Assembly: GCA_963716185.1 (NCBI GenBank)
Contig: OY970295.1
Location: 884,049 to 948,048, forward strand
DNA length: 64,000 bases
From: Thermodesulfovibrionales bacterium
GTDB lineage: Bacteria; Nitrospirota; Thermodesulfovibrionia; Thermodesulfovibrionales; SM23-35
Direction of reading: 5' to 3'
The notes below the pieces were generated by a model, which saw only the letters and a list, made by a program, of their open reading frames with translations, was not told the DNA's origin and searched no databases. A program made the translations under genes and the position numbers. Position 1 is the stretch's first letter. Every line of letters begins with the position of its first letter. Shown here in pieces: positions 2,877-50,554 of this stretch.

Positions 2877-3569
2877 TCATGATTCCCTCGATTTTTCGAA
2901 GGTAGTTCCGGCAGCCAACTTTGCCGCGGCTTTATCAGGGTTATTTCGGACCGCACGCGTTCCCGGCAGAAATATACGTTCCAACAATAATTTGGCCACT
3001 ATCGTGCCGATAACAGCTCCCGCCAGCACGTCGGAAGGAAAGTGTGCAATACCCTCCACCCTTGTAAGGCCGACAAAAACGGCCCAGATATAAAAAAAGA
3101 TCCTGTATCCTGGAAAATAAAAGGAAAGTATATAGGCAAAGCAGAATGCAATGGTAGTGTGCCCTGACGGGAAGGAATCAAATCCGAGCTTTAGCGACGG
3201 GCCCGTAAATACTAAATCATCCGTCAATTTCGGCCTAATCCTTCCCGAAAGATGCTTGAGAACCTGAACCGTGACGCCTGCAGATATAAAGCCGAAAAGC
3301 AAAGTCTTGCCTGCACTGTAACAGGTCCGGTTGTAAAACTTCCCGGTTAAGAAAAGGACAATTGCAACCGTTATCAAAGTGGCACCGTGGGAAATAAAAC
3401 ATATAAAGGGATCGGCGTGAACAAAAATATAATAAACAAAACATTTCTTTACAAAATAATTTTTGAGAAAAGAAACGATAATTTTATCGAACCAAAAGAA
3501 AAACAGCGGAAGACTCATTACGGTAAAAATCAGCTTCTTATTGTCTCTCAAGAATTGCATATGCGTCAT
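2877..3569 (-). CDS. PAP2-family membrane phosphatase
   Basis: PAP2 motifs KHLSGRIRP, PSGHT and TRVEGIAHFPSD, with multiple TM helices. The start is uncertain: 3569, or 3518 (MSLPLFF), which would avoid overlap with the upstream gene. Confidence 0.8.
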   Translation of the reverse strand: MTHMQFLRDNKKLIFTVMSLPLFFFWFDKIIVSFLKNYFVKKCFVYYIFVHADPFICFISHGATLITVAIVLFLTGKFYNRTCYSAGKTLLFGFISAGVTVQVLKHLSGRIRPKLTDDLVFTGPSLKLGFDSFPSGHTTIAFCFAYILSFYFPGYRIFFYIWAVFVGLTRVEGIAHFPSDVLAGAVIGTIVAKLLLERIFLPGTRAVRNNPDKAAAKLAAGTTFEKSRES

Positions 3570-9903: not shown

Positions 9904-9943
9904 CGAAATGCCTCGAATCCAATGTATTAATTAGTGCCTATTT

Positions 9944-10050
9944 ATAAAGTCGATATTTGAAGCCCCATCCCCTCACGCCTCCCATCAAGGGAGGGGCATA
10001 TTTCCTACCCTCTCCCCTGGCGGGAGAGGGTAAGGGTGAAGGGGTTCATT
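9944..10050 (+). repeat. REP-like intergenic element, family A, copy 1
   Basis: TATAAAGTCGATAT ... CCTCCC-atcaa-GGGAGG ... CCCTCTCCC-ctggc-GGGAGAGGG ... GGGGTTCAT. A second copy sits at 52036-52142. Confidence 0.8.
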
Positions 10051-10077
10051 AATTTATATAAGCAGACACTAATTACA

Positions 10078-12853: not shown

Positions 12854-13855
12854 TTACTTTTTGCTTGCCGCCATCTCTTCGAGCCTTTTGAGTTTCGACG
12901 TCTCACCGACGGCTATCAGTGTATCGCCCGAGTTGATAATAGTCCGGAACGTGGGATTGAATTTCATCTCGCCCCCCTGATGTTTTATAGCTACAATGAT
13001 TATCCCCATATCTCTTCCTATGCCGCCCTGGTCCAGACTAAGCCCGACAAGGGGGGAACCTTCCTGAATGGTTATTTCTTCAATCTGCAGATCGATATTG
13101 CCGCTCTTCGTAGCGAATTCTATGAAGTCCACGACAGCCGGTTTCAAAACGGTATGCGCAATTCTCAGGCCGCCAATATGGTATGGAGATACAACCCTGT
13201 CGGCGCCGGCCCTGAGCAACTTTTGTTCCGAGCCCTCCTCGCCCGCCCTGGCGACGATTAAGAGAGGGGGGTTCAAACCCCTGGCGCTCAGGACCACGTA
13301 AAGATTTTCCGCATCCGTCGGAAGAACCGAAATAAGACACTTCGCTTTTTCAATGCCCGCTTTCTTCAAAATTTCGTCCTTGGTAGCGTCCCCTTGAATT
13401 ATAAGCACATCCGTTTTTTCGGCGAGAATTCCGTCGTTCTTCTCGATAACCACAAATTCCAATTTCTCGTGTTTAAGCTCCTTTGCTATGATCTTCCCCA
13501 TCCTGCCATACCCGCATACGACATAATGGTCCTTCAGATCCTTCAGTTTTTTTTCCAATCTCTTCCTCCCGAATATTTCCTGTAATTCACCCTCCAAAAC
13601 AAACTTTGCGCCCGTACTGAGTGCATACAATACGGTCCCCACACCCCCTGTAATGAGAATAATTGTGAATAACTTCCCATTGAAGGACAGGTCATGCACT
13701 TCCTTGAAGCCGACGGTTGTGAGGGTTATTATTGTCATATACAGGGAATCCAGGAAATTCCATCCTTCTATGTACTCGTAGCCTGCCGTTCCGAAAGAAA
13801 TTACAAGAAGTATGAGCCCCGCAGAAAGCATGACGCGTTTTCTGATTTCTTCCAC
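12854..13855 (-). CDS. two-TM K+-channel-type pore fused to RCK (TrkA-N/TrkA-C) domains
   Basis: Pore helix/filter region YMTIITLTTVGFKEV. Rossmann motif VVCGYGRMG. C-terminal RCK_C-like segment. Sits 28 bp upstream of cdaA on the same strand. Confidence 0.85.
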   Translation of the reverse strand: MEEIRKRVMLSAGLILLVISFGTAGYEYIEGWNFLDSLYMTIITLTTVGFKEVHDLSFNGKLFTIILITGGVGTVLYALSTGAKFVLEGELQEIFGRKRLEKKLKDLKDHYVVCGYGRMGKIIAKELKHEKLEFVVIEKNDGILAEKTDVLIIQGDATKDEILKKAGIEKAKCLISVLPTDAENLYVVLSARGLNPPLLIVARAGEEGSEQKLLRAGADRVVSPYHIGGLRIAHTVLKPAVVDFIEFATKSGNIDLQIEEITIQEGSPLVGLSLDQGGIGRDMGIIIVAIKHQGGEMKFNPTFRTIINSGDTLIAVGETSKLKRLEEMAASKK

Positions 13856-14012
13856 CTGTTGAATTCCTATTCGAAAGTCACAATTTTTGATACGCCCTCC
13901 TAAATTATATATGAACTGTCACAATAATTTCGTGCGGCCAAAAATATATTCGCCTGTAGAAAGCGCACCATCCCGGGGTTTTCCCTGCCGTAACAAAGGA
14001 AAGCATGAATTC

Positions 14013-14233
14013 TAACCCAAAAACTACAATTCACTAAATATCCGGGGAGGCATAGTGGCAGAAAAAACTTGACAGCAGCACCTTTGTGGGCGGTCAGATA
14101 TCAAGGCCGCCCGGATATTCTTATTCAGAAGAAATATATGGCGTAGAAAACCCAGATGCTGTCCCGAAGGCTTTCGGGATTTTTAGGTCACTATGCCTTC
14201 CTGAATCTGAGATCAACCGTATTTTTCGGGTTA
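14013..14233 (-). mobile_element. MITE-like palindromic element, copy 1 (inverted relative to copies 2-4)
   Basis: Termini TAACCC...GGGTTA. Internal GGCATAGTGGCAGAAAAAACTTGACA / CACTATGCC inverted repeat and GGGCGG-N-CCGCCC hairpin. Aligns by eye with 20425-20638, 21099-21312 and 40909-41119. Confidence 0.7.
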
Positions 14234-14333
14234 ACCGGAAGGCAACTTGCTGGGCCCTTGCCTTAAATTAAATATTGAGGATTCTTAATAATATTGATAT
14301 ATTAATGCCAAATATCAGGTGAAGAGCCGGAAC

Positions 14334-14909
14334 ATGTCAGGCAGAATGGAAATGCTGATCGTAGTTGCCGCCTTTTTTGCAGTCATTCCGGGCTGTGCAT
14401 TGGTGCAGGAAAAACAGAGAGGTGAAGCGGCAAAAGGAGTAGAACAGAAAGAGGTAAGGACGGAAACGACAGCAATGGGCGGGTATCTGGGAAAACTATC
14501 CGGGGGCATGATCGGACACTATGCCAATGATAAAAAGAAGACAAAGGAAGAGACCGCCAAAAAATATAAGTACAGGCCGTCACAGGGCATAGTTGCGAGA
14601 ATCGAAAACGCTTCCGTAGTTCCTCATGAAGTGAAAGCGGGACAGACAGTGGAGGTCAGGATGACCTACGCGGTGCTCGGCACAACTCCCCGCAGGGAAT
14701 TAACTGTTACAGAAACACGGGAAATCAGGTACAAAGGCGAGATCATCGGAAAACCTGTAGTACACTTGGCCTGCGAAGACGGCACGTATTTTTCCACTGT
14801 ACCCGTCACTTTGCCGCCTGATACCAGAAAGGGCAAGTACAATGTCGTGATGACGGTTCAGACACATAAAGTGAGCTCATCGAAGGAAGCCTTTTTTTAT
14901 ATAAAATGA
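14334..14909 (+). CDS. lipoprotein of unknown function
   Basis: MSGRMEMLIVVAAFFAVIPGC, a lipobox-type signal. No recognisable domain. The ORF track starts at a GTG at 14319. Confidence 0.55.
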   Translation: MSGRMEMLIVVAAFFAVIPGCALVQEKQRGEAAKGVEQKEVRTETTAMGGYLGKLSGGMIGHYANDKKKTKEETAKKYKYRPSQGIVARIENASVVPHEVKAGQTVEVRMTYAVLGTTPRRELTVTETREIRYKGEIIGKPVVHLACEDGTYFSTVPVTLPPDTRKGKYNVVMTVQTHKVSSSKEAFFYIK

Positions 14910-19219: not shown

Positions 19220-20296
19220 CTAAACCTCACCACCTCTTTTTGATTCTCCGGAAGCATTATGTCCCTCCCGGAAGCCGGGCAGGTCATCATAAATGCAGCC
19301 GGCATCTTCCCTATTAATAGCAGAGCCGAGGAAGAGTCCGCCGCCCTCCGGGCGTATCGTTACAAGATTTTCGCTGCCGTCGGTTATTACGCTGCCTTGC
19401 GCAATCAATTCTATCAGCCGACGGTTTGAGTTAATTCGTACAGGCCCGATTTGCCCGCCGAATCTGATGTTCATGACAAGTGAAGGGTAGAGCAAGGAGA
19501 CAACGCTTGTCGGCTCCCCGAAAAGATCTGTTGCCCCCGCAGAAATAAGGCCGCAGACATATCCGTTTTCAGAGAATGCGGGGCCACCGCACATGCCATG
19601 CTTGATTTCAGCATCAATTGTATAGCACGGGCCCCCGATGAATTCATTTGTAAAACGCTGCGTGAATATCCGGTTAACACGCCCCTCAACGGCTATAAGT
19701 TTGTGCTCGTAAGCGTCAAGCAGGTTTATTCGTCCGCTTTTTACATCATCCAAAGAAAGACCGTTATCCGGCGCCGGGAGATCGCCGAAACCAACACATA
19801 CGATACGGGAACCTATCCGGGGCACCGCAAAGGACACGGGAAGAGGGAGGTAGGAAACCTTGCCCTGAAACTGCGGCATTATGAAGCCCATGTCCGTCGG
19901 CGGAACTCCGTCAATGGACCCGAGATTCCATATATTCCCCGATAATCTGTCCCCGGGGAGAACCTGATGATGAAAGACAGCCATTCCGATGTCTTTAAAT
20001 ATATAGTGAGCGGGTATTCCATCCATTTGACTCAGCGGGTCATCATGCAAATGACGGCGAAAAGACTCCCGGATATTATGCAACGCCGTCACCGAAACGC
20101 CGAGTTTGCTGATACAAAAGGCCGTTCCGACAGGCATAAGCCGCCGGCCTCGTGTGCCAAAGAGCGGATAGACGCCGAGCGCCAAAGGGTGACCCCACGA
20201 AGGTATCTCCCATACGTTTCTGCCCGGTTGACGTGCCGCTTCGATGTCGGTGGAGACGGGTTGTCCCTTAGGGACGAGTTGAGAAATAATCCGCAA
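19220..20296 (-). CDS. chymotrypsin/trypsin-fold peptidase with Cys at the nucleophile position
   Basis: GTAFCISKLGVSVTALHNI (His block), PPTDMGFIM (Asp block), KHGMCGGPAF in place of the G-x-S-G-G-P Ser block. About 100-aa C-terminal extension. Confidence 0.6.
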   Translation of the reverse strand: MRIISQLVPKGQPVSTDIEAARQPGRNVWEIPSWGHPLALGVYPLFGTRGRRLMPVGTAFCISKLGVSVTALHNIRESFRRHLHDDPLSQMDGIPAHYIFKDIGMAVFHHQVLPGDRLSGNIWNLGSIDGVPPTDMGFIMPQFQGKVSYLPLPVSFAVPRIGSRIVCVGFGDLPAPDNGLSLDDVKSGRINLLDAYEHKLIAVEGRVNRIFTQRFTNEFIGGPCYTIDAEIKHGMCGGPAFSENGYVCGLISAGATDLFGEPTSVVSLLYPSLVMNIRFGGQIGPVRINSNRRLIELIAQGSVITDGSENLVTIRPEGGGLFLGSAINREDAGCIYDDLPGFREGHNASGESKRGGEV

Positions 20297-20424
20297 AATG
20301 TTCTGCTATATGCCCCCTTTTTGTTTTGTCATAAATATAATCCGGTTGAAATATTATATCCCTTCAGCCGGACTGAAAAGCAACACAAAGCAGGAGGCGG
20401 TCATCAATGAATTGAAGCCGGTAT

Positions 20425-20638
20425 TAACCCTAAAAATGCGGTTAATCTCAGATTCAAGCAGGCACAGTGACATAAAGACCTTGACAATGCAGAATTTCGG
20501 TTTTATAACGCCATATATTTCTTCTGAATAAAAATATCCAGGCGGCCTTGATATCCGACCGCCCGCAAGGGTGCTGCTGTCAAGCTTTTTCTGCCGCTAT
20601 GCCTTACCGGATATTTAGTGAATTTCAGTTCTAGGTTA
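20425..20638 (+). mobile_element. MITE-like palindromic element, copy 2
   Basis: TAACCCTAAAAATGCGG ... GGCACAGTGACA ... CTTGACA-17 nt-TATAAC ... GGCGGCCTTGATATCCGACCGCC ... TGTCAAG ... GCTATGCC ... AGGTTA. Confidence 0.7.
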
Positions 20639-20692
20639 CGGCTGCTTCCACTGATGAACAATTGACGTTTAATGCCGGAGAAGATCCCGGTT

Positions 20693-20902
20693 TTATTCTT
20701 CCTCGATTACTACGGAATAGAATAAACCTTGATCAAAAATAAGCCCTTTTCCATCAAGCGTTTCGCCTATGATATAGTTCTTAAATCCTGTTTGCAATTT
20801 ATTTTTCATCTGTCTTGTTGAATTATGACCGCCTTTAAAATATTCCACTGTTGAGCACAATATATTATTGCCTCTCCAATAATTTTTAATTATTAATTTC
20901 AT
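20693..20902 (-). CDS. hypothetical 69-aa protein (orphan, A+T-rich)
   Basis: ORF only; weak SD (GGTGA). No recognisable motif. Bracketed by MITE copies 2 and 3. Confidence 0.3.
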   Translation of the reverse strand: MKLIIKNYWRGNNILCSTVEYFKGGHNSTRQMKNKLQTGFKNYIIGETLDGKGLIFDQGLFYSVVIEEE

Positions 20903-21098
20903 TTGTCACCGTCTTTCTGCTTCATCAAGCGGTATTGTATTCAGTCTGTCGGTTCTCTTTCAAATATTGTGCAATAAGAAGTAAGAAGCAAAACAAATGC
21001 CAGAGACAAGCTATTGATTTTATTGAAATCGTTAGACGGCGAGTAAAGCAATATGCCATATTGACGGGCAATTTGTCTCGTGGAATAAGCAGGATTAT

Positions 21099-21312
21099 TA
21101 GCCGAAAAAATGCGGTTGATCTCAGATTCAGGCAGGCATAGTTGCAGAAAAACCTTGACAATGTAGAATTTGGGTTTTCTACGCCGTATATTTTTTCTGA
21201 ATAAAAATATCCGGGCGGCCTCGATATCAGACCGCCCACAAAGGGGCTGCTGTCAAGCTTTTTCTACCATTATGCCTTACCGGATATTTAGTGAATTTCA
21301 GTTTTCCGATTA
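21099..21312 (+). mobile_element. MITE-like palindromic element, copy 3
   Basis: Same architecture as copy 2. Termini are degraded (TAGCCG ... CGATTA). Confidence 0.7.
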
Positions 21313-21368
21313 ATGACTGTTGGTTGAGCCGGGCAATAGAGGCAAGGGGATATCACCTCTTGACGTTG

Positions 21369-22589
21369 TTAAGTTTGCTGATTAATACCGTCCCCTCTCG
21401 CGACTTTTTCAAAAAAATCCTCGAGCGCGGAAATGCAGGTTCTGTCACGATAGAGAAGATGCTTACCGGATGCAATCTTATCTGAAATCTGTTTGCGCCA
21501 GCTTGAATCCTGCCCCAGTCGCACCGACAGCTCAACATAATCATCAAGGGTGTCTGCGATGGTCGCTTTTATTCCCATCATAGTAAGAATAGCTGCGCTG
21601 TGACGCCCGCGCATCAACCCGCCGGGAAGAGTTACAACCGGCAGATTGTGTGCAATAGCCTCAAATGTGGAGTTACATCCGGACCATTCGATCGTATCTA
21701 AAAAGACGTCGGACAAGCGGTTGACGGCAAGGTAACGTTCCGGATCGAGATGAGGCAGAAATACAAGATAGTCTTCAGAATTAAGACCGGCCCGGCTGAA
21801 CGCCTTGCTGATCCTTGAACGAAATTGTTCCGTAATGGAATGACTTTCAGGGTGAGATATAAGAAGAAACCGGCAATCTCCAACCCGCCGGGCTATGCGA
21901 GGATATATCTCGTCATACTGAGGCAAGTATTTCTGAAGCGACTGACAACAAAGATAAAGGATGGATTTCTGACTTAAGCCGAAGGCGTCACGATGAATAT
22001 CAGATGTCTTCATATCGGCCGGCGTGTAATAAACCGACAAGTTGGGCAGACGGACAAGCTGTTCGGTATAATGATTTTCCGCATCGGGCGGTTCCATAAG
22101 ATCACTGCTGAGATAATAGTCTATAGTAGGAAGACCCGACGTATCAGGGTGGCCCCAGGAAGCACACTGGACGGGAGCCAATCTCAGGGCTGCAAGTCTC
22201 AATGCCGTGGGGTTCATGCCGATTTCCGGATAAATCAATATATGCAGGTTATCATTGCGAATGGTCCGGCAAAGTTCATCAAAGGAGTGGACATCCTCAA
22301 CAAAGCGATGAAAAGATTTTCTTGCGGCCCCGGTCTCAAAATCCTTCTTCTTCCCAGTGTAATATCCGTAAAGCTCGAATTTCTTATTGTCCAGGTTCTC
22401 AACCCACCCCTTAATCGGCACTTTCCAGTTGGAGTGGAGCCGGAAGAAGCCCGACACGAATCCGATCCGCAGCTGTCCCGCAGCTGAGTGTGGGGGCATT
22501 GAGGGGCGGTCGGAAAATTCCGGGTATCTCAAAGACATAAGCCGGCAAACGAGGTCTCCATAGATTTGTTGGAGCTCCCTGTTATTCAT
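21369..22589 (-). CDS. SPINDLY/OGT-like (GT41-type) glycosyltransferase catalytic region lacking TPR repeats
   Basis: GFVSGFFRLHSNW, ILIYPEIGMNP, ASWGHPDTSGLPTIDYYLSSD, EQLVRLPN, FLDTIEWSGCNSTFEAIAHNLPVVTLPG. The frame stays open about 52 codons upstream of the ATG with no start codon in that stretch. Confidence 0.7.
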   Translation of the reverse strand: MNNRELQQIYGDLVCRLMSLRYPEFSDRPSMPPHSAAGQLRIGFVSGFFRLHSNWKVPIKGWVENLDNKKFELYGYYTGKKKDFETGAARKSFHRFVEDVHSFDELCRTIRNDNLHILIYPEIGMNPTALRLAALRLAPVQCASWGHPDTSGLPTIDYYLSSDLMEPPDAENHYTEQLVRLPNLSVYYTPADMKTSDIHRDAFGLSQKSILYLCCQSLQKYLPQYDEIYPRIARRVGDCRFLLISHPESHSITEQFRSRISKAFSRAGLNSEDYLVFLPHLDPERYLAVNRLSDVFLDTIEWSGCNSTFEAIAHNLPVVTLPGGLMRGRHSAAILTMMGIKATIADTLDDYVELSVRLGQDSSWRKQISDKIASGKHLLYRDRTCISALEDFFEKVARGDGINQQT

Positions 22590-39451: not shown

Positions 39452-40852
39452 GTGACCATGACAAATTATATCAGGGTGAAGCGCATCGAGTTTTTCGCAG
39501 CGATTTTGGTTTTATCATTAAGTATCATTGCAATATTTATGCTTTCTGGATGCGGCGACTCAACGTATACGATTTCCGGCAGGATTACTTTAGGTGGCTC
39601 GGCGCTTTCAGGCGCAACAGTAAGTCTTTCCGGCCAGGCTTCAAAGACAACGGTGACGGACGCGAATGGCAACTATAGCTTCAGTCATATGTCAACCGGC
39701 GAATACACGTTGACCCCGTCGTTCTCCGGGGTCATCTTTAGCCCTCGGGACCTGAATATTGTTGTCGATGGCATTAACGCAACCGGGTTGGATTTCAATG
39801 CGAGTGGACAAGACAGGATAGTTGCGACAACTCATACCGTTTTCCTGAAAAGCGACGGAACTGTCTGGACCTGGGGTGATAACAGCAACGGTCAGCTCGG
39901 CGACGGCACTACCACTCAAAGCGCCACCCCCGTGCAGGTCAGCAGCCTGTCGGGCGTGACAGCCATTGCAGCGGGCGCTGCCCACACTGTTGCCTTGAGA
40001 AGCGACGGAACTGTCTGGACCTGGGGTGATAACAGCAACGGTCAGCTCGGCGACGGCACTACCACTCAAAGCGCCATCCCTGTAAAGGTCAGCAGCTTGT
40101 CGGGCGTGACAGCCATTGCAGCGGGCGCTGCCCACACTGTTGCCCTGAGAAACGACGGAACTGTCTGGACCTGGGGTGATAACAGCAACGGTCAGCTCGG
40201 CGACGGCACTACCACTCAAAGCGCCATCCCTGTAAAGGTCAGCGGCCTGACAGGCGTAACAGCCATCGCGGCAGGCGATTCCCACACTGTTGCCCGTAAA
40301 AATGATGCCACAGTCTGGACCTGGGGAAATAACAGCAATGGCCAGCTCGGCAACGGCACTACTGCACAAAAAACCACCCCTTTACAGGTCAGCAGTCTGA
40401 CAGGCGTAATAGCCGTTGCAGCGGGCGCTGCCCACACTGTTGCCCTGAAGAACGATGCCACAGTCTGGACTTGGGGCGATAACAGCAGCGGTCAGCTCGG
40501 CAACGGCAAGACCGCTCAAAAAACTGCTCCTGTGCAGGTCAGCGGACTTTCAAAGGTTATAGTCATTTCAGCAGGCGGCGCCAACACTGCTGCCCTGAAA
40601 GACGACGGCACAGCATGGACTTGGGGAAGCAACAGTAACGGCCAGCTCGGCAACGGCACTACAATTCAGAACACCACCCCTGTGCAGGTCAGCGGACTCT
40701 CAAGCGTGATAGCCGTTTGTCCAGGCTATACCCACACCATTGCCCTGAAAGTCGATGGCACGCTCTGGGCATGGGGAGATAATAGCAAAGGTCAGCTCGG
40801 GAATGGGACTACGACTCAGAGCACCATTCCTGTGCAGGTGCCGGAATTCTGA
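39452..40852 (+). CDS. lipoprotein with carboxypeptidase-regulatory-like domain and a seven-blade RCC1-repeat propeller
   Basis: Lipobox LSGC. ISGRITL...TDANGNYSF...GEYTL. Seven W(T/A)WG(D/N/S)NS.GQLG(D/N)G repeats. Confidence 0.88.
   Translation: MTMTNYIRVKRIEFFAAILVLSLSIIAIFMLSGCGDSTYTISGRITLGGSALSGATVSLSGQASKTTVTDANGNYSFSHMSTGEYTLTPSFSGVIFSPRDLNIVVDGINATGLDFNASGQDRIVATTHTVFLKSDGTVWTWGDNSNGQLGDGTTTQSATPVQVSSLSGVTAIAAGAAHTVALRSDGTVWTWGDNSNGQLGDGTTTQSAIPVKVSSLSGVTAIAAGAAHTVALRNDGTVWTWGDNSNGQLGDGTTTQSAIPVKVSGLTGVTAIAAGDSHTVARKNDATVWTWGNNSNGQLGNGTTAQKTTPLQVSSLTGVIAVAAGAAHTVALKNDATVWTWGDNSSGQLGNGKTAQKTAPVQVSGLSKVIVISAGGANTAALKDDGTAWTWGSNSNGQLGNGTTIQNTTPVQVSGLSSVIAVCPGYTHTIALKVDGTLWAWGDNSKGQLGNGTTTQSTIPVQVPEF
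39851..40300 (+). repeat. three near-identical 150-bp tandem units inside the RCC1 gene
   Basis: Units start at 39851, 40001 and 40151. A stretch of more than 75 nt (AGCGACGGAACTGTCTGGACCTGGGGTGATAACAGCAACGGTCAGCTCGGCGACGGCACTACCACTCAAAGCGCCA) is identical apart from one G-to-A change at the second base of unit 3. The later blades are far more diverged. Confidence 0.9.
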
Positions 40853-40908
40853 AGGGCTTATTGGACGCGTTATCCGGACCGGCCATTGGGACATCCGGTC
40901 GCAGCTTT

Positions 40909-41119
40909 TAACCCGAAAAATGCGATTGACCTCAGATTCAGGCAGGCATAGAGACACAAAAACCTCGACAGTGCAGAATTTGGAGTTTTCTGCGCATATA
41001 TTTCTCTTACTAAAATATCCGGGCGGCCTTGATTTCTTACCGCCTACAAAGGAGCTGCTGTCAAGCTTTTTCTGCCACTATGCCTCCCCGGATATTTTAG
41101 TGAGTTGCATCTTGGGTTG
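40909..41119 (+). mobile_element. MITE-like palindromic element, copy 4
   Basis: TAACCCGAAAAATGCG ... GGCATAGAGACA ... CTCGACA ... GGCGGCCTTGATTTCTTACCGCC ... TGTCAAG ... CACTATGCC ... GGGTTG. Begins 56 bp after the RCC1 gene stop. Confidence 0.7.
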
Positions 41120-41277
41120 AAGATACTGCAGTGGAAGAAAACAGGATAGAGGTTGACAGAGAGCTGTGTATCGGCTGCGGCCTATGTATCACCGTTTGTC
41201 CTACCGGAACCCTCTCGCTCGTAGAAGGAAAGGCAACAGCCTCCGGAGAGGAGTCGATTTCCTGCGGTGGTCGATAT
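41119..41277 (+). pseudogene. relic of a 4Fe-4S dicluster ferredoxin-domain gene
   Basis: The frame EDTAVEENRIEVDRELCIGCGLCITVCPTGTLSLVEGKATASGEESISCGGRY* has one intact CxxCxxCxxxCP motif. The second motif is cut by a stop. There is no credible start, and the 5' edge coincides with the MITE end. Confidence 0.45.
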
Positions 41278-41533
41278 TGAAGGAGTGCAAGAGTGGTAAT
41301 AAAGGGAATACCCATCCAGTTTACAGGGCGGGCATGAAACTTACGAATGCTCCAAACGAAATGCGGGAAATTCTCAAATTCATAGGGCTGAGACATAAGA
41401 GAGACGAAGAACGAAAATATTTCTCTTTAAGCTTAGACGAACTCGATACCGGTAGAAACGGTAAAAACCTGGAAAGCTGCCTGCAGTCCTCATTCAAATA
41501 ATCAACCATATCGACCGCATTGAGACCGGACTA

Positions 41534-43941: not shown

Positions 43942-44220
43942 GACGCACTATTAAACGGCATCGAGGAAAAATTTATGAAAAGAAGACATAAAATAAAATT
44001 GCCAAAGGTGTGATCAATTTACTAAAATATGGCCGTGAATAAGATTTGTTCCATTGTATCGGAGGCGGTCTTAGGGTGGGGATAACAGCAAATTGCATGA
44101 TGAATTGACACTCCTAATCAGCAAACCGGATGCATCCCTCCTTGCTCAATACAGAAAAATCCCAAAAGCAACTATCCTGGATAAAGCCTTTCCCCCTTTT
44201 TGCTCACCAAGGAGAGTCAT

Positions 44221-45489
44221 ATGACAGAACCAATAATCGCATGTCCCAAATGCAAGGCCGAAATTAAACTTACGGAATCGCTCGCGGCGCCGCTGATAGA
44301 ATCTACCCGCCGCGAATTCGAAAAACAACTGGCGCAAAAGGACGCAGACATTGCCAGGCGTGAGACTTCACTTCATGAGCGGGAAGAGGCATTATCCAAA
44401 GCAAGGGAGACTATAGACGACCAAGTCGCTGAGAAGCTGAAACAGGAGCGCGCCAAGATCATTGCCGAGGAAGCCAAGAAGGCTAAGCTCGCCCTCGGTA
44501 CCGACCTGGATCAGAAGAACAGGGAAATCACCGAGCTGCAGGAAATCCTTAAACAGCGGGATGTAAAGCTCGCAGAGGCGCAGACGGCACAGGCAGAACT
44601 CATTAGAAAGCAGCGCGAGCTTGACGACGCCAAACGCGAAATGGACCTGACGGTTGAAAAGAAGATCCAGGAGGGACTTGCCGCTGTACGGGAACAGGCC
44701 CATAAAGAAGCCGAGGAGCAACTGAAACTCAAGGTGATGGAAAAAGAACAGACCATTGCCTCTATGCAAAAGCAGATTGAGGAACTTAAGCGCAGGGCTG
44801 AACAGGGTTCGCAGCAACTCCAGGGAGAAGTTCAGGAGCTTGCTCTTGAAGAACTCTTAAGCACAAAGTTTCCGCGCGATATAATTGAGCCTGTCCCTAA
44901 AGGCGAATATGGCGGCGACATATTGCATCGCGTTTCAGGCCCATTCGGACAGACCTGCGGCACGATCTTATGGGAATCCAAGCGAACCAAGAATTGGAGT
45001 GACAGCTGGCTCGGGAAACTCCGCGAAGATCAGCGTGCCGCCAAGGCTGAAATAGCCGTGATCGTCAGCCAGGTCCTTCCGAAGGGCGTGGAGACATTCG
45101 AATTGATAGACGGCGTGTGGGTGACCCATCCACGGGCAGCGCTCCCCGTCGCAATGTCGCTTCGTAATACGCTGATTGAGGTAGCATGTGCCAGGCAGGC
45201 TACCGAAGGACAGCAAACCAAGATGGAGATGGTCTATCAGTATCTTACCGGCCCGCGTTTCCGCCAACGAGTCCAGGCCATTGTAGAAGCTTTTTCTTCG
45301 ATGCACGAAGACCTTGAGAAGGAGAGGAAGGCCATACTGAAACAATGGGCCAAGCGCGAGGAGCAGATTGACCGCGTCATGCAGGCAACAGTCGGCATGT
45401 ATGGCGACCTGCAAGGGATTGCGGGAAAGACTCTGCAGGAAATAGAGGGGCTCGGTTTTCCGGCTCTTGAAGAGGGCACGGAGAAATAG
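44221..45489 (+). CDS. DUF2130-family protein: zinc ribbon, long coiled coil, PD-(D/E)xK-like C-domain
   Basis: SD AAGGAG before MTEPIIACPKCKAEIKL. About 200 aa of E/K/Q-rich coiled coil. C-terminal GGDILHRV ... ILWESKRTKNW fits a D...E-x-K nuclease-type motif, with an RmuC-like layout. Confidence 0.7.
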   Translation: MTEPIIACPKCKAEIKLTESLAAPLIESTRREFEKQLAQKDADIARRETSLHEREEALSKARETIDDQVAEKLKQERAKIIAEEAKKAKLALGTDLDQKNREITELQEILKQRDVKLAEAQTAQAELIRKQRELDDAKREMDLTVEKKIQEGLAAVREQAHKEAEEQLKLKVMEKEQTIASMQKQIEELKRRAEQGSQQLQGEVQELALEELLSTKFPRDIIEPVPKGEYGGDILHRVSGPFGQTCGTILWESKRTKNWSDSWLGKLREDQRAAKAEIAVIVSQVLPKGVETFELIDGVWVTHPRAALPVAMSLRNTLIEVACARQATEGQQTKMEMVYQYLTGPRFRQRVQAIVEAFSSMHEDLEKERKAILKQWAKREEQIDRVMQATVGMYGDLQGIAGKTLQEIEGLGFPALEEGTEK

Positions 45490-45560
45490 AGGACTTGATG
45501 CAATAATTGACCATATGATATCTTGAGGTCACAGTTTGGTACCTCAAGTTTGGAGGTAGA

Positions 45561-46082
45561 ATGAAGGCGCTTATTCCAGTTGAGATGATTGAGAAGAAGA
45601 TTCTACTGATTCGAGGCCATAAGGTCATGCTTGATAGCGATCTTGCGATGCTTTACGAGGTGGAGACTTTTAATCTCAACAAAGCTGTGAAAAGAAATAT
45701 TGATCGCTTCCCGGAAGACTTTATGTTCCAACTCACCAAGGAAGAAGCCGGCTCTTTGAGATTCCAATTTGGAATATCAAAAACAGAAGGTCGGGGCGGT
45801 CGTCGTTATCTTCCCTATGTCTTTACTGAACAAGGCGTTGCTATGCTCTCCACCGTTCTGAACAGTAAACGGGCGGTTAAGGTCAATATTGAGATTATGA
45901 GGACTTTTGTAAGACTCCGTCAGATGCTTGCCTCCAATGCAGAACTTGCCCGAAAACTCGCTGACATGGAAAAGAAATATGATGCACAATTTAAAGTTGT
46001 CTTCGACGCCATTCGGCAGCTCATGTCGCCCGCCGTACCCAAGAAGGGCAAGATTGGTTTCGTAAGAGAAAAGGATGCGTGA
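45561..46082 (+). CDS. ORF6N (KilA-N-related) DNA-binding domain protein
   Basis: [49 protein letters not shown] is the ORF6N signature block. Confidence 0.75.
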
Positions 46083-46522
46083 GATGACTGGGTTCTCTAC
46101 AATAATATGTGATTTGGGTAGCTCGAAGACTTAATGTATCTCGTTACTCAGTCGTTTGAGAAGAATGTGGGAAACGAGTGTCGATGAAGGAAATGAGATG
46201 GGGAATTGAGTTGACTAAAGAATGGAGTATTCAGGAAACAAGACCTTACCCCGCGCATCCTTTAAACAGCATTAATTAGCCAAGAAAGAAATGCTGTCTT
46301 ACCTGACCTCAAAATGTCTCTTTCAGCCACACCCATTTAGTTAGAGGGCACCGTTTTTGTGATGATAAGCATGATATATCAGCTGCTCACAGTAATTAAA
46401 ATTTCAAAGCATCTTGATAATTCTGCGGGTTAGTAGCGGAAATCGTTACGAGGGCAGACTCAACGTCCAGCTTTTGGCAGCAAAAAAAGAGTGTCCGTAG
46501 CTACGTCAGACTAAAGCCCCCC

Positions 46523-49500
46523 CTATCTCTGGTGCATCAGTGGAATTCCATCGTCTTCTGTAAAATCTTTCTTTTTTTCGCGTTCAATTTCTTTGTGCAG
46601 ATATGAAATTTTCTGCTCAAGAAATTGTTTGTGTTTTAAGAAATCTATCGTATTACAAACTGATATTAATGATTCATAGTAATCAATCTTAGCTTGCAAC
46701 ATAGGGACTGCGCTGCCTGAATAACTCCACACAAGCGGCTCAAGAGGGAGTTCCCTGAAATCCTCAAAATTACTATTGTGCTTTAAGAACATGGTAATAT
46801 GAAGACAACGTCTATCCGCTTGGAAGCCGGCAATAATGGAGAAAAGGAATTGCATAAACTTAGGGTCATCATGTCGCTCGAAGATGAGTCTTCCCAGGAA
46901 TATATCTTGTCTTTCTGTAACATGACTATCAGCTGCCCAATTCTTTTCTGTGCCGAAAAAAGCGCCCAAATATGAAAAATGATGTTTGTCCTGTTCATGC
47001 TCAAATACTCTTTGCGTGACTCTACGCATGACTTTTTCATAGTCGTCACGCTTCCAAATGAATGAATAATCTCGATGATCAGCATGCCTACCCACCCATT
47101 CTTTCCTTACATACATGTCGTCTATATACTTATCAGTGAATGCCGGATCAATATCCAATATTCTCGAAAAAGTGCAGCCGTCAAAGTCCATATGTGCCTC
47201 CGCTTTATCAAGAATCAAGTAGGCACTTTCCAATAGACTTATATCTTCGGAAAAGCTCTGTAATATTTCCTTATTTATTTCGGAGTAGGGATTGAATAGC
47301 TGAGATAAAAAGGATGCGTGCTTCGGTTCATTCTTAATCTTGTCAAGAATTATCGTCACGACCTTAACGATAACTTTCTTATCAAGCGAACGATACCTCA
47401 GGAGAAAATCTAAATCATAAAGGAAGTCTCCGACATCGGCGTCCCTAAACAATTCATACAGTCGATCCAAATGATCGAGTGTGATCTCTTCTAAAGGCAA
47501 AACTTGGTAGTAGCTAAACAGCCATCTCATCTTGGATGAATAAGTGGGTTCAGAGAGTATTCTATAGCCTTGCTCACTTCCACGGGAGTCTAGAAGGCAT
47601 TTGACCGGAAAATAGGGATTTAGATTTAGAAATTCATTTTCATGCAAATATTTGCTTAGAACATGGATGTACAGACTGGCATTATTTTCTGACAGGGCGA
47701 CGAGTGCCGTAATAAAACCTTGCACAAAAAGATATGATTTGTGCTGGTCGGTAATCCTTTCATTTATTTCTTTGCATTTCTTGAGCAAATCATCATATTC
47801 TGAAATCCCATAGCTTTTAAAATACTCACTAATCCTTTTCTTCTTGTATTGCTGATACTCCCCAATTCCCATATTCAATTCCTCTTCCCGTCTTCCGACC
47901 CAATCAGATGCAAGAAGTTCGTAAAGCAGGTACTTTTCGCTTTCGAAACGCTCCTTTATTTCAGAAGAGAAAGTCAAATTGAAACGTGATAACATTTTTA
48001 AATATTCTTGAACAATAAAGCAATGCCAGATGTTCGATGACTCTAATTCTTCCTCAAAAAACTGCAGAACGTAGACCGAGTCCTCTCCCACAATTTCTTC
48101 CACAGAAACCTCAAAGCCTGCTCGGGGATGCCTATATAAGAGATTCAGCACATCTTCTTGCAGATTCCCATTAAGCTGAAACAGATAACTCCAAATAGCC
48201 TTCCTGAGTTCCTTTAATGAAGGAGTGTTTGGAAGGTCAAAATTGATTATTGTAATCGAGAGATGCTTGGCTGATTTGGTTGACGTAAAATATGTGTGCA
48301 GATATTTTTCTGCAACGGCAACAAACAATTTTGAAAAAAGCAGCTCTTCGCCTTTCTTTGAGCGCTTCCACAGATTCTCGATAACAATTTTCTGCCGCTG
48401 AAACTCTGATAAATAAGAATTTGGGTCGAATCCAAAACTCTCAATCAGAAGATATAAAACCTGCGGCACACTATTAGGTTGTTTGACTACAAAGTCAAGT
48501 AAAAGACTCATGGCGATGCTAAAATTGTCTGTCCCTACATCTTTAAATGCAGTGAGCAGTTTTAGCACGGGCGGAAAAGTCACATTTGAATCTGGCTCAA
48601 ACTTTATGTTAGCAATTTCAACAGGATTTGGCTCCAAAGCATCTATTCTTTCTTTTATATAGAGCAGGGTATCAGTCTGCTTCCAAAACCAAAAAACTTC
48701 TAAAAACTGAAGAAAGTCGTTCTCGTTTTCACCATGTTTGAGAACATTCCACGTTCTGTCCACATAGGGCCGCATTTTTTCCATTATTGCCTGGGAATTA
48801 AAGGCACTGATCACAGGATTTATCGCATCCACAAGTCGTTGACGATAGCGAGGGAAAAGATGAGACAGGATTAGCCCGAAATCTAATATTTCATCCCTAA
48901 AGAAAACAGTATAGAATAGGTACGTAGCAAGAACCTGATCAGAAACTTTTACAACCTCGTTCTCATACATATCAAACACTTCTTTATCGTGGAGTGTTTC
49001 CGCAACTTCCCAGAAATCGGTTTCTGAGATGCCAAACACTCTTTCAATGTCAGTCATCATTTCCTTGTCAGAACGATCAATACTTCGAAAGAAATTTACA
49101 ACACCAGCTACCTTGAGGACCATGTCGTTTTTCAAATCCTCAAGATCACGTCGGATTGATTCATAATATTTATCATAAAGCTCAGATACATCAGCGATGC
49201 TTTCAAGTGTATTCTTTTCTTTAGCTATTTCTGAAGCCATAATTGCAAGGCGCGGATTGCCTTGCGATATTTCGGCGATGCGGTCAAGATAGTGATGATT
49301 TTTGATGCCATATTCTTTCTCAACAAGTTGCCTGATCTGGTCATCACTGAAAGGCGATATAGCTATTTCGAAAACGCCGCCGTAAGCCTTGCACATATCC
49401 CTTATCTTATCTATTGCATAATCACGCACTGTAATGATGACTTTGATTCGCTGTGAAACTTGTTTATATTGCAATAGCTCAATGATATATTGAAACCCGC

Positions 49501-49696
49501 TTATGCGATTAGCGTCATCCACAAAAATAAGATAGTCACCTGGGGCCGAAAAATACGCACGAATATCTTCAAATAAATCTATCCCTCGATTAAATATGCA
49601 CTGAACTTTAAAAGACGGGGTGGTCTCAATAAATTTCCGACAACACTCCAAAGCCAGTCTGGATTTTCCCACGCCAGCCTGCCCCGCAATCATCAC
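46523..49696 (-). CDS. large STAND-like P-loop NTPase with about 850-aa helical C-terminal region; 5' end probably truncated
   Basis: A GTG start 5 codons before Walker A (IAGQAGVGKS). Walker B YLIFVDDA. VIITVRD. GNPRLAI. Visibly A+T-rich compared with neighbours. An in-frame stop lies only 14 codons upstream. Confidence 0.65.
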   Translation of the reverse strand: MMIAGQAGVGKSRLALECCRKFIETTPSFKVQCIFNRGIDLFEDIRAYFSAPGDYLIFVDDANRISGFQYIIELLQYKQVSQRIKVIITVRDYAIDKIRDMCKAYGGVFEIAISPFSDDQIRQLVEKEYGIKNHHYLDRIAEISQGNPRLAIMASEIAKEKNTLESIADVSELYDKYYESIRRDLEDLKNDMVLKVAGVVNFFRSIDRSDKEMMTDIERVFGISETDFWEVAETLHDKEVFDMYENEVVKVSDQVLATYLFYTVFFRDEILDFGLILSHLFPRYRQRLVDAINPVISAFNSQAIMEKMRPYVDRTWNVLKHGENENDFLQFLEVFWFWKQTDTLLYIKERIDALEPNPVEIANIKFEPDSNVTFPPVLKLLTAFKDVGTDNFSIAMSLLLDFVVKQPNSVPQVLYLLIESFGFDPNSYLSEFQRQKIVIENLWKRSKKGEELLFSKLFVAVAEKYLHTYFTSTKSAKHLSITIINFDLPNTPSLKELRKAIWSYLFQLNGNLQEDVLNLLYRHPRAGFEVSVEEIVGEDSVYVLQFFEEELESSNIWHCFIVQEYLKMLSRFNLTFSSEIKERFESEKYLLYELLASDWVGRREEELNMGIGEYQQYKKKRISEYFKSYGISEYDDLLKKCKEINERITDQHKSYLFVQGFITALVALSENNASLYIHVLSKYLHENEFLNLNPYFPVKCLLDSRGSEQGYRILSEPTYSSKMRWLFSYYQVLPLEEITLDHLDRLYELFRDADVGDFLYDLDFLLRYRSLDKKVIVKVVTIILDKIKNEPKHASFLSQLFNPYSEINKEILQSFSEDISLLESAYLILDKAEAHMDFDGCTFSRILDIDPAFTDKYIDDMYVRKEWVGRHADHRDYSFIWKRDDYEKVMRRVTQRVFEHEQDKHHFSYLGAFFGTEKNWAADSHVTERQDIFLGRLIFERHDDPKFMQFLFSIIAGFQADRRCLHITMFLKHNSNFEDFRELPLEPLVWSYSGSAVPMLQAKIDYYESLISVCNTIDFLKHKQFLEQKISYLHKEIEREKKKDFTEDDGIPLMHQR

Positions 49697-49939
49697 TAAA
49701 TTGTTTTCGCCCAGTCCTAAAACAGGGTTATAGGGTCAAATCTTCATTCTTCACAAATAATTCCTAGAAGTGTGCAGATTTACTATGTTATACAGAAACG
49801 TTTGCTTCTGTGAAAAGGGAAAACAATGGCAGGACAAAATTAATTATTCACATTCAGTTATTCTTATGATTCTCGCAAATCATTTTTCAACAGGATCTTC
49901 AATGCTGCAATGAGGATTTTGTCATCGCGTTTTATAATC

Positions 49940-50286
49940 TCAAGCTGTCTTCTGCTTTGCGGTCTCTTTTTCCAGGACATCTACTATGTATTTATTAAGG
50001 GTAACCCCCTTTTTCGTTGCTTCTAACACAATACGTTGATGCAGGCTTGAGCCGACCCGTATATTGAACGATCCCTTGAAGGATGTTCCGGCTCTTTGCC
50101 CTGTTTCTTGCAGGTCTGAAGGTAGTCCTCCACGGCTTCCTCAAACGACTTGCGCAATGATTTAACGTCCGTGCCTTCATAGCTGACGAGGGCCCGGATA
50201 AATTCGACCTTGCCGTAAAATACCTTGTCCTCATCGCTGTAATGGACAGAACCGTAATAATTTTTGTATCTCATCATATCTTTCAT
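49940..50286 (-). pseudogene. hicB: HicB-family antitoxin gene with a 1-nt frameshift (no hicA partner)
   Basis: MKDMMRYKNYYGSVHYSDEDKVFYGKVEFIRALVSYEGTDVKSLRKSFEEAVEDYLQTCKKQGKEPEHP, then the reading frame changes. The +1 frame continues FKGSFNIRVGSSLHQRIVLEATKKGVTLNKYIVDVLEKETAKQKTA* (RHH part). One base appears to be missing near 50080. Confidence 0.7.
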
Positions 50287-50357
50287 ATCAATCCTTCTCC
50301 TCTTAAGGTTTCTTCGATCTGCTCCAACTGGTACTTTTTCAGTACCGATGTTATCAT

Positions 50358-50394
50358 CCTTGTAAATTAAAATATAGTATTTCAATTTACAAGG
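50358..50394. promoter_or_regulatory. perfect 11-bp inverted repeat, candidate HicB operator/promoter
   Basis: CCTTGTAAATT-15 nt-AATTTACAAGG, about 70 bp upstream of the hicB ATG. The spacer contains TATATT/TATAGT -10-like hexamers. Confidence 0.45.
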
Positions 50395-50493
50395 TTAAAT
50401 ATTTAACAACAAAAAGCAGAAGAGAGCGCAATGGAATGACGATGCATGGTTGGACTTTCAGTTTAGGCGGGCAACCGTCCTGTTGAAACACCT

Positions 50494-50526: not shown

Positions 50527-50554
50527 AATCTATACAAAAATCTATCATTTTGCT

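What the first reader, a model, noticed from the sequence alone, without database searches (positions are those of the whole stretch)
14013..14233. Four copies of a ~210-220 bp palindromic MITE-like element with TAACCC/GGGTTA termini and internal TTGACA boxes
The same element occurs at 14013-14233 (inverted), 20425-20638, 21099-21312 and 40909-41119. Aligned by eye, the copies share the following. (a) Termini TA-ACCC(G/T)AAAAA ... GGGT-TA, consistent with TA-flanked terminal inverted repeats. (b) An internal ~26-nt inverted repeat, GGCATAGTG(R)CA(N)AAAAA(S)CTTGACA, on both arms. (c) A GC hairpin, GGGCGG-N11-CCGCCC. (d) ATATCCGG / CCGGATAT complementary boxes. Copy 2 carries a textbook TTGACA-17 nt-TATAAC promoter-like pair. 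Copy 1 has swapped the left TTGACA box for a CCCGAA-agcc-TTCGGG hairpin, and copy 3 has decayed termini. No transposase is present in the window. The architecture recalls Correia/ERIC-type elements, which are known to carry promoters and to be processed as RNA, but the sequence matches nothing I recognise. Every copy lies next to an accessory or decayed gene.
Basis: partly seen in the sequence, partly recalled or inferred. Interest (0 to 1): 0.65.

Follow-up and report, generated by a model that had tools for sequence, protein, structure and literature searches.

The report
Old palindromic MITE family in Thermodesulfovibrionales
The four repeats are real copies of a roughly 216-bp palindromic, non-coding mobile-element relic (a MITE) scattered between genes of a Thermodesulfovibrionales-like (Nitrospirota) bacterium; it is an undescribed family of an ordinary kind, and its "promoter boxes" are most likely just part of the inverted repeat.

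Summary
Four copies (14012-14234 minus strand; 20424-20639, 21098-21313 and 40908-41120 plus strand) are 80-86% identical, and no chance matches are expected. The 216-bp consensus is an imperfect end-to-end palindrome with 12-nt terminal inverted repeats (TTAACCCGAAAA / TTTTYGGGTTAA), a 26-nt box on each arm, and a central GC stem-loop.

Similarity stops at TTAA on both sides in a 12-copy alignment. Eleven further copies lie in wetland/peat-type metagenome contigs, between unrelated housekeeping genes such as rpmA-obg, ribH-nusB and rho. Relatives lack c1, c2 and c3 at the orthologous sites. Two orthologous copies carry different secondary inserts.

No transposase, integrase or Y1 enzyme is in the window or next to any copy. 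Rfam finds nothing, there is no convincing RNA covariation, and decay is uniform along the element.

Best reading: an old, probably inactive MITE family mobilised in trans. Two things remain unresolved: the duplication (TA or TTAA) and the parent IS.

The TTGACA promoter idea and the "next to accessory genes" claim are not supported.

One unplanned result: 10 of 12 loci share the orientation of their flanking genes, and the stem-loop looks like a terminator on the other strand only.

Novelty: a new member of a known kind. Interest is modest.

The parts
14012..14234 (-). Copy c1 (223 bp), bounded by TTAA...TTAG; lies between the divergent K+ channel gene (12854-13855, -) and ORF196 (14319-14909, +)
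   Evidence: nhmmer E=1.8e-68. Absent at the orthologous site in L023, L024 and L026.
14161..14180 (+). c1-specific GC hairpin (CCCGAA-AGCC-TTCGGG plus T-run) that replaces the left-arm TTGACA box through a 7-nt insertion
   Evidence: Alignment; flagged as terminator-like.
14088..14112 (.). c1 central GC stem-loop (GGGCGG-N13-CCGCCC)
20424..20639 (+). Copy c2 (216 bp), bounded by TTAA...TTAC; downstream of the 69-aa ORF (20693-20902, -) and upstream of the trypsin-like gene (19220-20296, -)
   Evidence: E=1.6e-69. Absent in L023, together with the trypsin-like gene.
20461..20486 (+). c2 left-arm 26-nt box ending in TTGACA; followed by a 17-nt spacer and TATAAC (only in c2)
   Evidence: not listed by the promoter scan.
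20578..20603 (-). c2 right-arm 26-nt box (inverted copy)
20541..20564 (.). c2 central GC stem-loop; followed on the minus strand by GGATATTTTTATT
21098..21313 (+). Copy c3 (216 bp), with degraded termini TTAGCCG...CCGATTAA; 56 bp downstream of the GT41-like gene (21369-22589, -)
   Evidence: E=1.4e-69. Absent in L023; the apparent remnant there is not significant.
21212..21238 (-). c3 central stem-loop that scores as an intrinsic-terminator-like site on the minus strand (10 pairs, 7 GC, tail GATATTTTTA)
21135..21160 (+). c3 left-arm 26-nt box
21251..21276 (-). c3 right-arm 26-nt box
40908..41120 (+). Copy c4 (213 bp), bounded by TTAA...TTGA; 55 bp downstream of the RCC1-repeat gene (39452-40852, +) and upstream of ORF 41166-41501 (+)
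   Evidence: E=6.7e-63.
40945..40970 (+). c4 left-arm 26-nt box (TTGACA degraded to TCGACA)
41059..41084 (-). c4 right-arm 26-nt box (0 mismatches)
41021..41044 (.). c4 central GC stem-loop

Best explanation
The four repeats belong to an undescribed family of miniature inverted-repeat transposable elements (MITEs). The host is a Thermodesulfovibrionales-like (Nitrospirota) chromosome.

Shown:
- Each copy is a roughly 216-bp non-coding imperfect palindrome. Its parts are 12-nt terminal inverted repeats (TTAACCCGAAAA), about 80-nt complementary arms that each carry a 26-nt box, and an asymmetric centre of about 75 nt with a GC stem-loop.
- Copies sit at TTAA-bracketed positions in intergenic spacers, often a few tens of bases after a gene or its terminator.
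- Copies are present or absent among related genomes.
- No transposase lies in cis.
- Copies are 69-93% identical overall and 80-86% within this window. They decay evenly along their length and accumulate indels and nested insertions.

Inferred:
- The element was spread by cut-and-paste (DDE-type) transposition. A transposase encoded elsewhere would recognise the terminal repeats, and probably the subterminal 26-nt box on both arms. Insertion would be at TA or TTAA sites.
- The family is now old and probably inactive in this genome.

Inferred side effect:
- Once inserted, the element adds a long hairpin to any transcript that crosses it.
- On one strand only, it adds a GC stem followed by a U-rich tract that looks like an intrinsic terminator.
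- Selection against that orientation inside transcription units would explain why 10 of 12 copies point the same way as their neighbours.
For: Repeat reality and boundaries. In the 12-copy alignment A4, similarity starts and ends at TTAA, and the flanks share nothing beyond it.

Palindrome: 65 consensus pairs, 92% of cells paired.

Non-coding: copy lengths are not conserved modulo 3, c1 carries a 7-nt insertion, and there is no Pfam hit.

Dispersal: the metagenome scan returned 10 contigs, all true copies at 74-91% identity with unrelated flanks. One more came through a spurious ORF. Flanking genes were confirmed as L27/Obg, RibH/NusB, Rho/thioesterase, GAPDH, CutA and DsrP/VTT.

Presence/absence:
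- c1 is absent in L023, L024 and L026.
- c2 and c3 are absent in L023.
- The rpmA-obg spacer is filled in L017, empty in L038/L039, and holds a different small repeat in L028.

Secondary events: L021 and L022 are the same insertion. L021 has a 168-bp insert and L022 a 54-bp insert.

No enzyme in cis.

Not a known RNA: no Rfam hit at gathering thresholds or at E<=1. The RNAalifold covariation term is +0.63.

Even decay and age.

Strand asymmetry of the stem-loop.

Orientation: 10 of 12 loci, binomial p=0.039.
Against: No autonomous element with matching termini was found. The complete host genome could not be retrieved, and the genome-collection scan gave only chance hits.

No base-precise empty site was obtained, so a target-site duplication is not demonstrated. 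The TTAA bracket could be part of the inverted repeat.

No pair of near-identical copies was seen, so recent mobility is not shown.

The orientation bias is not expected for a symmetric DDE-type MITE unless selection acts. It is also what single-strand transposition would give.

Compensated changes on the two arms are in modest excess: 8 pairs against 2.6 +/- 1.3 in shuffles, with slid controls up to 6. The L029-type relative also keeps 18 perfect pairs. Both leave room for selection on pairing.
Confidence: 0.72

Rival explanations
1. The element is a single-strand-transposed palindromic element: a REPIN mobilised by a RAYT, or a PATE derived from IS200/IS605. A Y1 (HUH) transposase would insert it 3' of a TTAA tetranucleotide in one orientation relative to replication.
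For: Strong orientation bias relative to gene direction, 10 of 12 loci. The TTAA bracket could be a left target site plus a right cleavage site. The element has long hairpin potential. No duplication is demonstrable beyond TTAA.
Against: The two ends are inverted repeats of each other over about 80 nt. IS200/IS605 ends instead carry similar subterminal hairpins on the same strand and lack terminal inverted repeats (my own knowledge of the family). At 216 bp it is larger than typical REPINs. There is no GTAG-type REP head. No Y1_Tnp/RAYT gene was found in the window among ORFs of 90 aa or more.
Confidence: 0.1
2. The element is a functional structured RNA or DNA module whose long stem is kept by selection, for example an mRNA-stabilising or RNase III processing hairpin, an attenuator, or an sRNA gene. 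On this view its mobile-element-like spread is secondary.
For: The "+" strand is co-directional with neighbouring genes at 10 of 12 loci. Compensated arm changes exceed shuffles, 8 against 2.6. A diverged relative sits in the same rpmA-obg spacer, in the same orientation, in a host whose Obg is 83% identical. It keeps 18 perfect pairs although both arms differ from the main family. Fold z-scores range from -2.3 to -3.4.
Against: There is no Rfam match even at E<=1. The RNAalifold covariation term is slightly unfavourable. Slid controls reach 6 double changes. G:U against A:C counts show no decisive strand asymmetry, 89 against 57. Decay is uniform along the element, with no conserved loops. 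Copies tolerate inserts of 54-168 bp and loss of one box. The promoter-like hexamers are not conserved. Quasipalindrome correction by template switching can produce compensated changes without selection (established mutational mechanism, my own knowledge).
Confidence: 0.12
3. The copies are integron-type attC recombination sites (a CALIN-like cluster). On this view c2 and c3 delimit a gene cassette that holds the 69-aa ORF.
For: c2 and c3 are direct copies that flank a single small ORF. The elements are imperfect palindromes with AAC...GTT near the ends. The gene next to c2 is strain-specific.
Against: The 69-aa gene is present in relative L023 without either repeat. Most copies are solitary, between core housekeeping genes. 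At 216 bp the element is longer than attC sites, which are about 57-141 bp (my own knowledge). No RYYYAAC/GTTRRRY cores are conserved in the flanks. There is no integrase in the window.
Confidence: 0.02

Closest known systems
Correia elements (CREE/NEMIS) of Neisseria
   Same: A small non-coding element with terminal inverted repeats, bracketed by TA-containing sites. It is dispersed in intergenic DNA, is often co-transcribed with neighbours, and forms a long hairpin. Published work reports promoter and terminator-like effects for Correia elements (my own knowledge, not tested here).
   Different: There is no sequence similarity. This element is 216 bp against about 100-155 bp. The host phylum is different. 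The promoter-like hexamers here are not conserved. Copy number appears much lower. No RNase III or IHF evidence is available.
ERIC/IRU and YPAL-type enterobacterial palindromic repeats
   Same: Imperfect whole-element palindromes of 127-170 bp, found in transcribed intergenic regions. Copies are old and diverged, vary in presence among relatives, carry internal insertions in some copies, and have no known transposase.
   Different: A different sequence and host. This element is longer. It has a clear 12-nt terminal inverted repeat with a TTAA bracket and an asymmetric centre bearing a strand-specific terminator-like stem-loop.
IS630/Tc1-mariner-derived MITEs (for example RUP of Streptococcus pneumoniae)
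   Same: TIR-bounded, about 100-300 bp, and inserted at TA, which would read T-TA-[ACCC...GGGT]-TA-A here.
   Different: A TA duplication is not demonstrated. The outer T and A of the TTAA bracket are conserved as strongly as the element itself (12 deviations in 88 positions). That pattern fits a 4-bp TTAA duplication or a palindromic TTAA target equally well. No IS630-family partner was found.
IS1380 family / piggyBac-like transposons
   Same: Termini beginning CC(C) directly after a 4-bp TTAA-like bracket, TTAA|CCC...GGG|TTAA. This resembles the TTAA target and CCC...GGG ends of piggyBac, and the CC ends with 4-5-bp duplications of IS1380-family elements (my own knowledge; a lead, not a test).
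   Different: No transposase of this type was found or tested. The resemblance rests on 7 bases. MITEs of this family are not, to my knowledge, described in Nitrospirota.

Membership tests
Bacterial MITE (non-autonomous TIR transposon) | Small (under about 600 bp) with no coding capacity | tested here: met
   Copies are 213-223 bp. Lengths are not conserved modulo 3, c1 carries a 7-nt insertion, and the ORFs that overlap copies have no Pfam hits.
Bacterial MITE (non-autonomous TIR transposon) | Terminal inverted repeats at sharply defined common boundaries | tested here: met
   The termini are TTAACCCGAAAA / TTTTYGGGTTAA, and similarity stops there in 12 copies. The terminal helix is 87% paired.
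Bacterial MITE (non-autonomous TIR transposon) | Multiple copies dispersed at unrelated loci | tested here: met
   Four copies in the window plus 11 in metagenome contigs, at 9 further independent sites with different flanking genes.
Bacterial MITE (non-autonomous TIR transposon) | Filled versus empty orthologous sites | tested here: met
   c1, c2 and c3 are absent in relative L023. c1 is also absent in L024 and L026. The rpmA-obg spacer is filled in L017 and empty in L038/L039. This is gene-level resolution only.
Bacterial MITE (non-autonomous TIR transposon) | Target-site duplication flanking each copy | tested here: inconclusive
   TTAA or a one-base variant lies on both sides of most copies, and there is no longer direct repeat. 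It cannot be separated from the TIR because every empty site is too diverged at the junction.
Bacterial MITE (non-autonomous TIR transposon) | A cognate autonomous IS with the same termini that encodes a transposase | not testable with these tools
   No solo or long-range termini were found in 64 kb plus about 190 kb of fetched loci.
IS630/Tc1-derived MITE | TA dinucleotide duplication and an IS630-family partner | tested here: inconclusive
   The bracket is compatible with TA, but equally with TTAA. No partner was found.
Correia / ERIC families | Family-specific consensus sequence and size (Correia about 100-155 bp; ERIC about 127 bp) | tested here: not met
   The consensus is 216 bp. Its sequence does not resemble the published Correia or ERIC consensus sequences as I recall them (own knowledge; no direct alignment was run). 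Rfam, plasmid, phage and viral searches all found nothing. The host is Nitrospirota-like.
REPIN/RAYT or IS200/IS605 PATE | No TIRs, same-strand subterminal hairpins, and an associated Y1 transposase | tested here: not met
   The ends are inverted repeats over about 80 nt. No Y1_Tnp hit was found among the window ORFs of 90 aa or more.
Integron attC site | 57-141 bp, R''/R' cores, arrays of cassettes, and an IntI nearby | tested here: not met
   The element is 216 bp. Copies are solitary between core genes. The 69-aa gene is present without repeats in L023. There is no integrase.
Any Rfam structured RNA family | Covariance-model match | tested here: not met
   No match at gathering thresholds over the window, nor at E<=1 over c2-c3.

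The most novel reading that the evidence does not exclude
The inner stem may no longer be junk. On this reading it is a domesticated, orientation-constrained hairpin/terminator module.

The basis is as follows:
- At the rpmA-obg spacer a related copy persists in the same orientation across hosts whose Obg proteins are only 83% identical.
- That copy's termini are eroded, but its 18-bp box stem is perfectly re-paired after changes on both arms.
- Across loci, 10 of 12 copies face the direction that avoids the terminator-like strand.

If this is true, the family would be a Nitrospirota example of a MITE exapted as a cis-acting RNA element (stabiliser, processing site or attenuator) in core operons. 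It might also derive from a TTAA-specific piggyBac/IS1380-like transposon.
Probability: 0.12. Interest if true: 0.5.

Novelty: new member of a known kind. Interest (0 to 1): 0.3.

Why it matters
For annotation: the consensus has an open frame from end to end, and gene callers have already produced spurious "hypothetical proteins" from copies. Contigs also break at copies in metagenome assemblies of this poorly cultured, sulfur-cycling lineage.

For biology: the family gives a marker of strain-level insertion polymorphism in Thermodesulfovibrionales. It is also a candidate natural example of orientation-dependent polarity, because the stem-loop looks like a terminator on one strand only. It lies inside core operons such as rplU-rpmA-obg and ribH-nusB.

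It does not reveal a new kind of system.

Tried and rejected
(1) The genome-collection scan with the 19-base core gave 11 hits. All match over only about 20-26 bases in unrelated taxa, so they are chance hits. It yielded neither the host genome nor further copies.

(2) Exact-protein look-ups of window genes and of the 100%-identical P0002 found nothing on record, so the 3.59-Mb source contig could not be read.

(3) I searched the protein database with the consensus frame +0 translation to harvest spurious ORFs. Only one hit came back.

(4) Base-precise empty sites were not obtained. Relatives at 83-92% protein identity lack the copies, but the junction DNA is too diverged to read. L27-based look-ups gave variable rpmA-obg spacers and no clean junction.

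(5) An apparent remnant in the L023 c3 site (TTTCTGCCGCT, AATTTCAGTT) is not significant against shuffles, with 46 of 500 and 22 of 500 shuffles scoring at least as high. I rejected it.

(6) Promoter reading: the scan lists no site at the TTGACA boxes, and the boxes are lost in L029. I rejected it as a family feature.

(7) The ATATCCGG / CCGGATAT alternative pairing shows no compensation across copies. I rejected it.

(8) The coding hypothesis for the open frame +0 fails because of indels that are not multiples of 3. I rejected it.

(9) Plasmid, phage and viral collections gave no match.

(10) The literature search found no description of such a repeat in this lineage, and the IS-family review I wanted is not held. 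IS-family end features therefore rest on my own knowledge.

Full report
OBSERVATION

I place them at 14012-14234 (minus strand), 20424-20639, 21098-21313 and 40908-41120 (plus strand).

BLASTN shows each copy matching the other three over essentially its full length. Pairwise identity in the alignment is 80-86%. Three diagnostic oligomers of 20-26 nt hit only these copies, against 0.00 matches expected in dinucleotide-preserving shuffles.

- the termini;
- the 26-nt box on both arms;
- the central GC hairpin, although its loop is 13 nt rather than 11;
- the ATATCCGG / CCGGATAT boxes;
- the replacement of c1's left box by a CCCGAA-AGCC-TTCGGG hairpin through a 7-nt insertion;
- the eroded termini of c3.

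ANATOMY

A consensus built from nine full-length copies is 216 bp. It reads TTAACCCGAAAAATGCGG...CAGTTTTTGGGTTAA.

It is one long imperfect palindrome. Sixty-five consensus base pairs join the two arms of about 80 nt, and 92% of cells are paired across 12 copies. The terminal 12 nt form a near-perfect inverted repeat, and each arm contains the box GGCATAGTGRCANAAAAASCTTGACA.

The central stretch of about 75 nt is not palindromic as a whole. It carries a GC stem-loop. On the "-" strand this stem is followed by GGATATTTTTATT, which makes it terminator-like, and c3 passes the scan outright. On the "+" strand the stem is followed by ACAAAGG.

Frame +0 of the consensus is open from end to end. It is not coding, because copy lengths differ by amounts that are not multiples of three and there is no family match.

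HOST AND DISTRIBUTION

The window is ordinary core chromosome. It carries lpxC, nfo, comEC, glmM, trpBA, accD, lptD, ftsEX, prs, pth, priA and others.

The K+ channel gene next to c1 has a 100%-identical database entry on a 3,585,087-bp contig. Its relatives at 79% identity are named Thermodesulfovibrionales by NCBI. The source contig could not be retrieved.

One scan of the genome collection gave only chance 20-mers. One scan of JGI metagenome contigs with a 23-mer gave ten contigs, and every one holds a true copy at 74-91% identity with unrelated flanks. An eleventh copy (L022) was found because a gene caller had called an ORF inside it. Plasmid, phage and viral collections hold nothing similar.

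In a 12-copy alignment, similarity begins and ends at TTAA on both sides. The flanks share no further direct repeat.

The extra copies lie between housekeeping genes, as confirmed by Pfam:
- L27 | Obg
- RibH | NusB
- Rho | thioesterase
- upstream of GAPDH
- upstream of CutA
- DsrP | DedA-like (VTT) protein

That holds only for c1 (ORF196) and c2 (the trypsin-like gene), both of which are missing in relative L023.

EVIDENCE OF MOBILITY

Relative L023, whose K+ channel is 88% identical, is syntenic across the c1-c3 region but lacks all three copies. L024 and L026 also lack c1. A suspected remnant in L023 is not significant.

The rpmA-obg spacer differs among relatives:
- L017 holds the element.
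- L029-L034 hold a diverged relative of it (nhmmer E=1.2e-4, same orientation).
- L028 holds a different small repeat.
- L038/L039 hold neither.

L021 and L022 are the same insertion in two close strains. L021 has since acquired a 168-bp insert that carries a motif of another repeat family, and L022 a 54-bp GC-rich insert.

No junction is conserved enough to read a duplication at base resolution. The bracketing 4-mers deviate from TTAA at 12 of 88 positions, about the same rate as the element itself. So TA and TTAA duplications both remain possible.

No transposase, integrase or Y1 enzyme is encoded in the window or beside any copy. No additional termini that could bound a longer element were found.

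IS IT AN RNA?

- Rfam gives no match at gathering thresholds for the window, nor at E<=1 for the c2-c3 segment.
- RNAalifold recovers the arm stem, but with a covariation term of +0.63.
- Counting pairs on the full palindrome gives 8 pairs with changes on both sides, against 2.6 +/- 1.3 in shuffles. Slid controls reach 6.
- G:U cells (89) against A:C cells (57) show no decisive strand asymmetry.
- Conservation is even along the element, 0.75-0.96 per segment in the unbiased window copies.

These results fit neutral decay of a palindromic transposon relic better than a constrained RNA.

The L029-type copy is the exception worth noting. Its box differs from the main family on both arms, yet it forms 18 consecutive perfect pairs (z = -3.4), and it has lost both TTGACA hexamers. 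Three explanations are possible:
- a subfamily whose two ends co-evolved with its own transposase;
- quasipalindrome correction by template switching;
- selection on pairing.

I cannot separate these.

PROMOTER CLAIM

Only c2 has TTGACA-17-TATAAC. The other copies read TCTACG or similar at the -10 position. The right-arm TTGACA faces into the stem-loop with no -10. The scan lists no promoter-like site at any box. I treat the boxes as part of the inverted repeat, plausibly a subterminal transposase-binding site (inference).

ORIENTATION

This result was not planned. In 10 of 12 independent, unambiguous loci, the element's "+" strand runs in the same direction as the flanking genes. The exceptions are c2 and c3, which are adjacent, and c1 lies between divergent genes. 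The binomial two-sided p is 0.039, or 0.012 if c2 and c3 are counted once.

Because the central stem-loop looks like a terminator only on the "-" strand, selection against polar insertions inside transcription units is a simple explanation. Consistent with this, c3 and c2, the two copies in the terminating orientation, sit 56 and 54 bp downstream of gene ends. This explanation is inferred, not tested. Strand-specific insertion by a single-strand transposase is the alternative.

COMPARISON WITH KNOWN FAMILIES

In how it works, the element resembles Correia, ERIC/YPAL and RUP-type bacterial MITEs. It is not a member of any of them, because sequence, size and host all differ.

The TTAA|CCC...GGG|TTAA ends recall piggyBac/IS1380-type termini. 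A T-TA-ACCC reading would fit IS630/Tc1. Both comparisons rest on my own knowledge of those families and are leads, not tests.

REPIN/RAYT, IS200/IS605 PATE and integron attC memberships each fail on tested defining features (see the membership table).

VERDICT

This is an undescribed, old and probably inactive MITE family of a Thermodesulfovibrionales lineage, so it is a new member of a known kind. My confidence in the MITE reading is about 0.7. Interest is modest at 0.3. The orientation bias and the re-paired diverged copy are the only features that could lift it, and both can be tested once the complete genome and transcript data are examined.

Noticed in passing
window 9935-10075 and 52028-52164; L012 38-168: A second dispersed repeat family ("B") of about 130 bp, with G/C-rich internal hairpins (CCCTCTCCCCTGGCGGGAGAGGG). 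The copies are 79-86% identical. One copy sits on the same metagenome contig as a copy of the main element.
   Followed up: partly
window 52163-52330 and 59534-59690 (inverted); L021 846-1013; L028 about 2835-2892; L029 about 3045-3075: A third small repeat family ("C") built around a GTCATTCC(G/C)GC...GGAATC hairpin motif. A piece with this motif is nested inside the L021 copy of the main element. Related sequences occupy rpmA-obg spacers in relatives. This lineage carries several small intergenic repeats.
   Followed up: partly
window 39452-40852 (tandem units 39683-40882): A 466-aa protein with seven RCC1 repeats after a carboxypeptidase-regulatory-like domain. The repeats are still visible at DNA level as 150-bp tandem units, 60-92% identical. 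This is the "tandem repeat" immediately upstream of copy c4.
   Followed up: partly
window 44200-50631: An accessory-looking block next to a tRNA gene (50558-50631). It holds a DUF2130 protein, an ORF6N/Rha-like phage regulatory protein (45561-46082), and a 1057-aa protein with weak STAND/NACHT/NB-ARC NTPase hits (46523-49696). It could be an integrated-element remnant or a defence gene.
   Followed up: no
window 14319-14909 and 19220-20296: ORF196 (with a lipoprotein-like N-terminus and no family hit) and a trypsin-like peptidase gene are both absent from the otherwise syntenic relative L023. They are separate indels from the adjacent element copies: a conserved 61-bp block lies between c1 and ORF196.
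   Followed up: partly
window 40755-41120; L022 7092-7289: Frame +0 of the element consensus is open from end to end. As a result, mechanical ORF lists and a JGI gene call (P0001, "hypothetical protein") contain spurious proteins translated from copies.
   Followed up: yes
L029 2843-2987 (same in L030-L034): A diverged relative of the element lies in the rpmA-obg spacer of a host whose Obg is 83% identical to that of L017's host. It has the same orientation. Its termini are not recognisable and its TTGACA boxes are lost, but the box stem forms 18 perfect pairs.
   Followed up: partly
L016 1-99; L018 1235-1373; L028 end: Several metagenome contigs end inside copies of these repeats, which suggests that the repeats fragment short-read assemblies of this lineage.
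   Followed up: no
L022 706-6776: The contig that carries the L022 copy encodes DsrC and a DsrMKJOP-like cluster immediately upstream. At least one host of the element family is therefore a dissimilatory sulfur-cycling organism.
   Followed up: no
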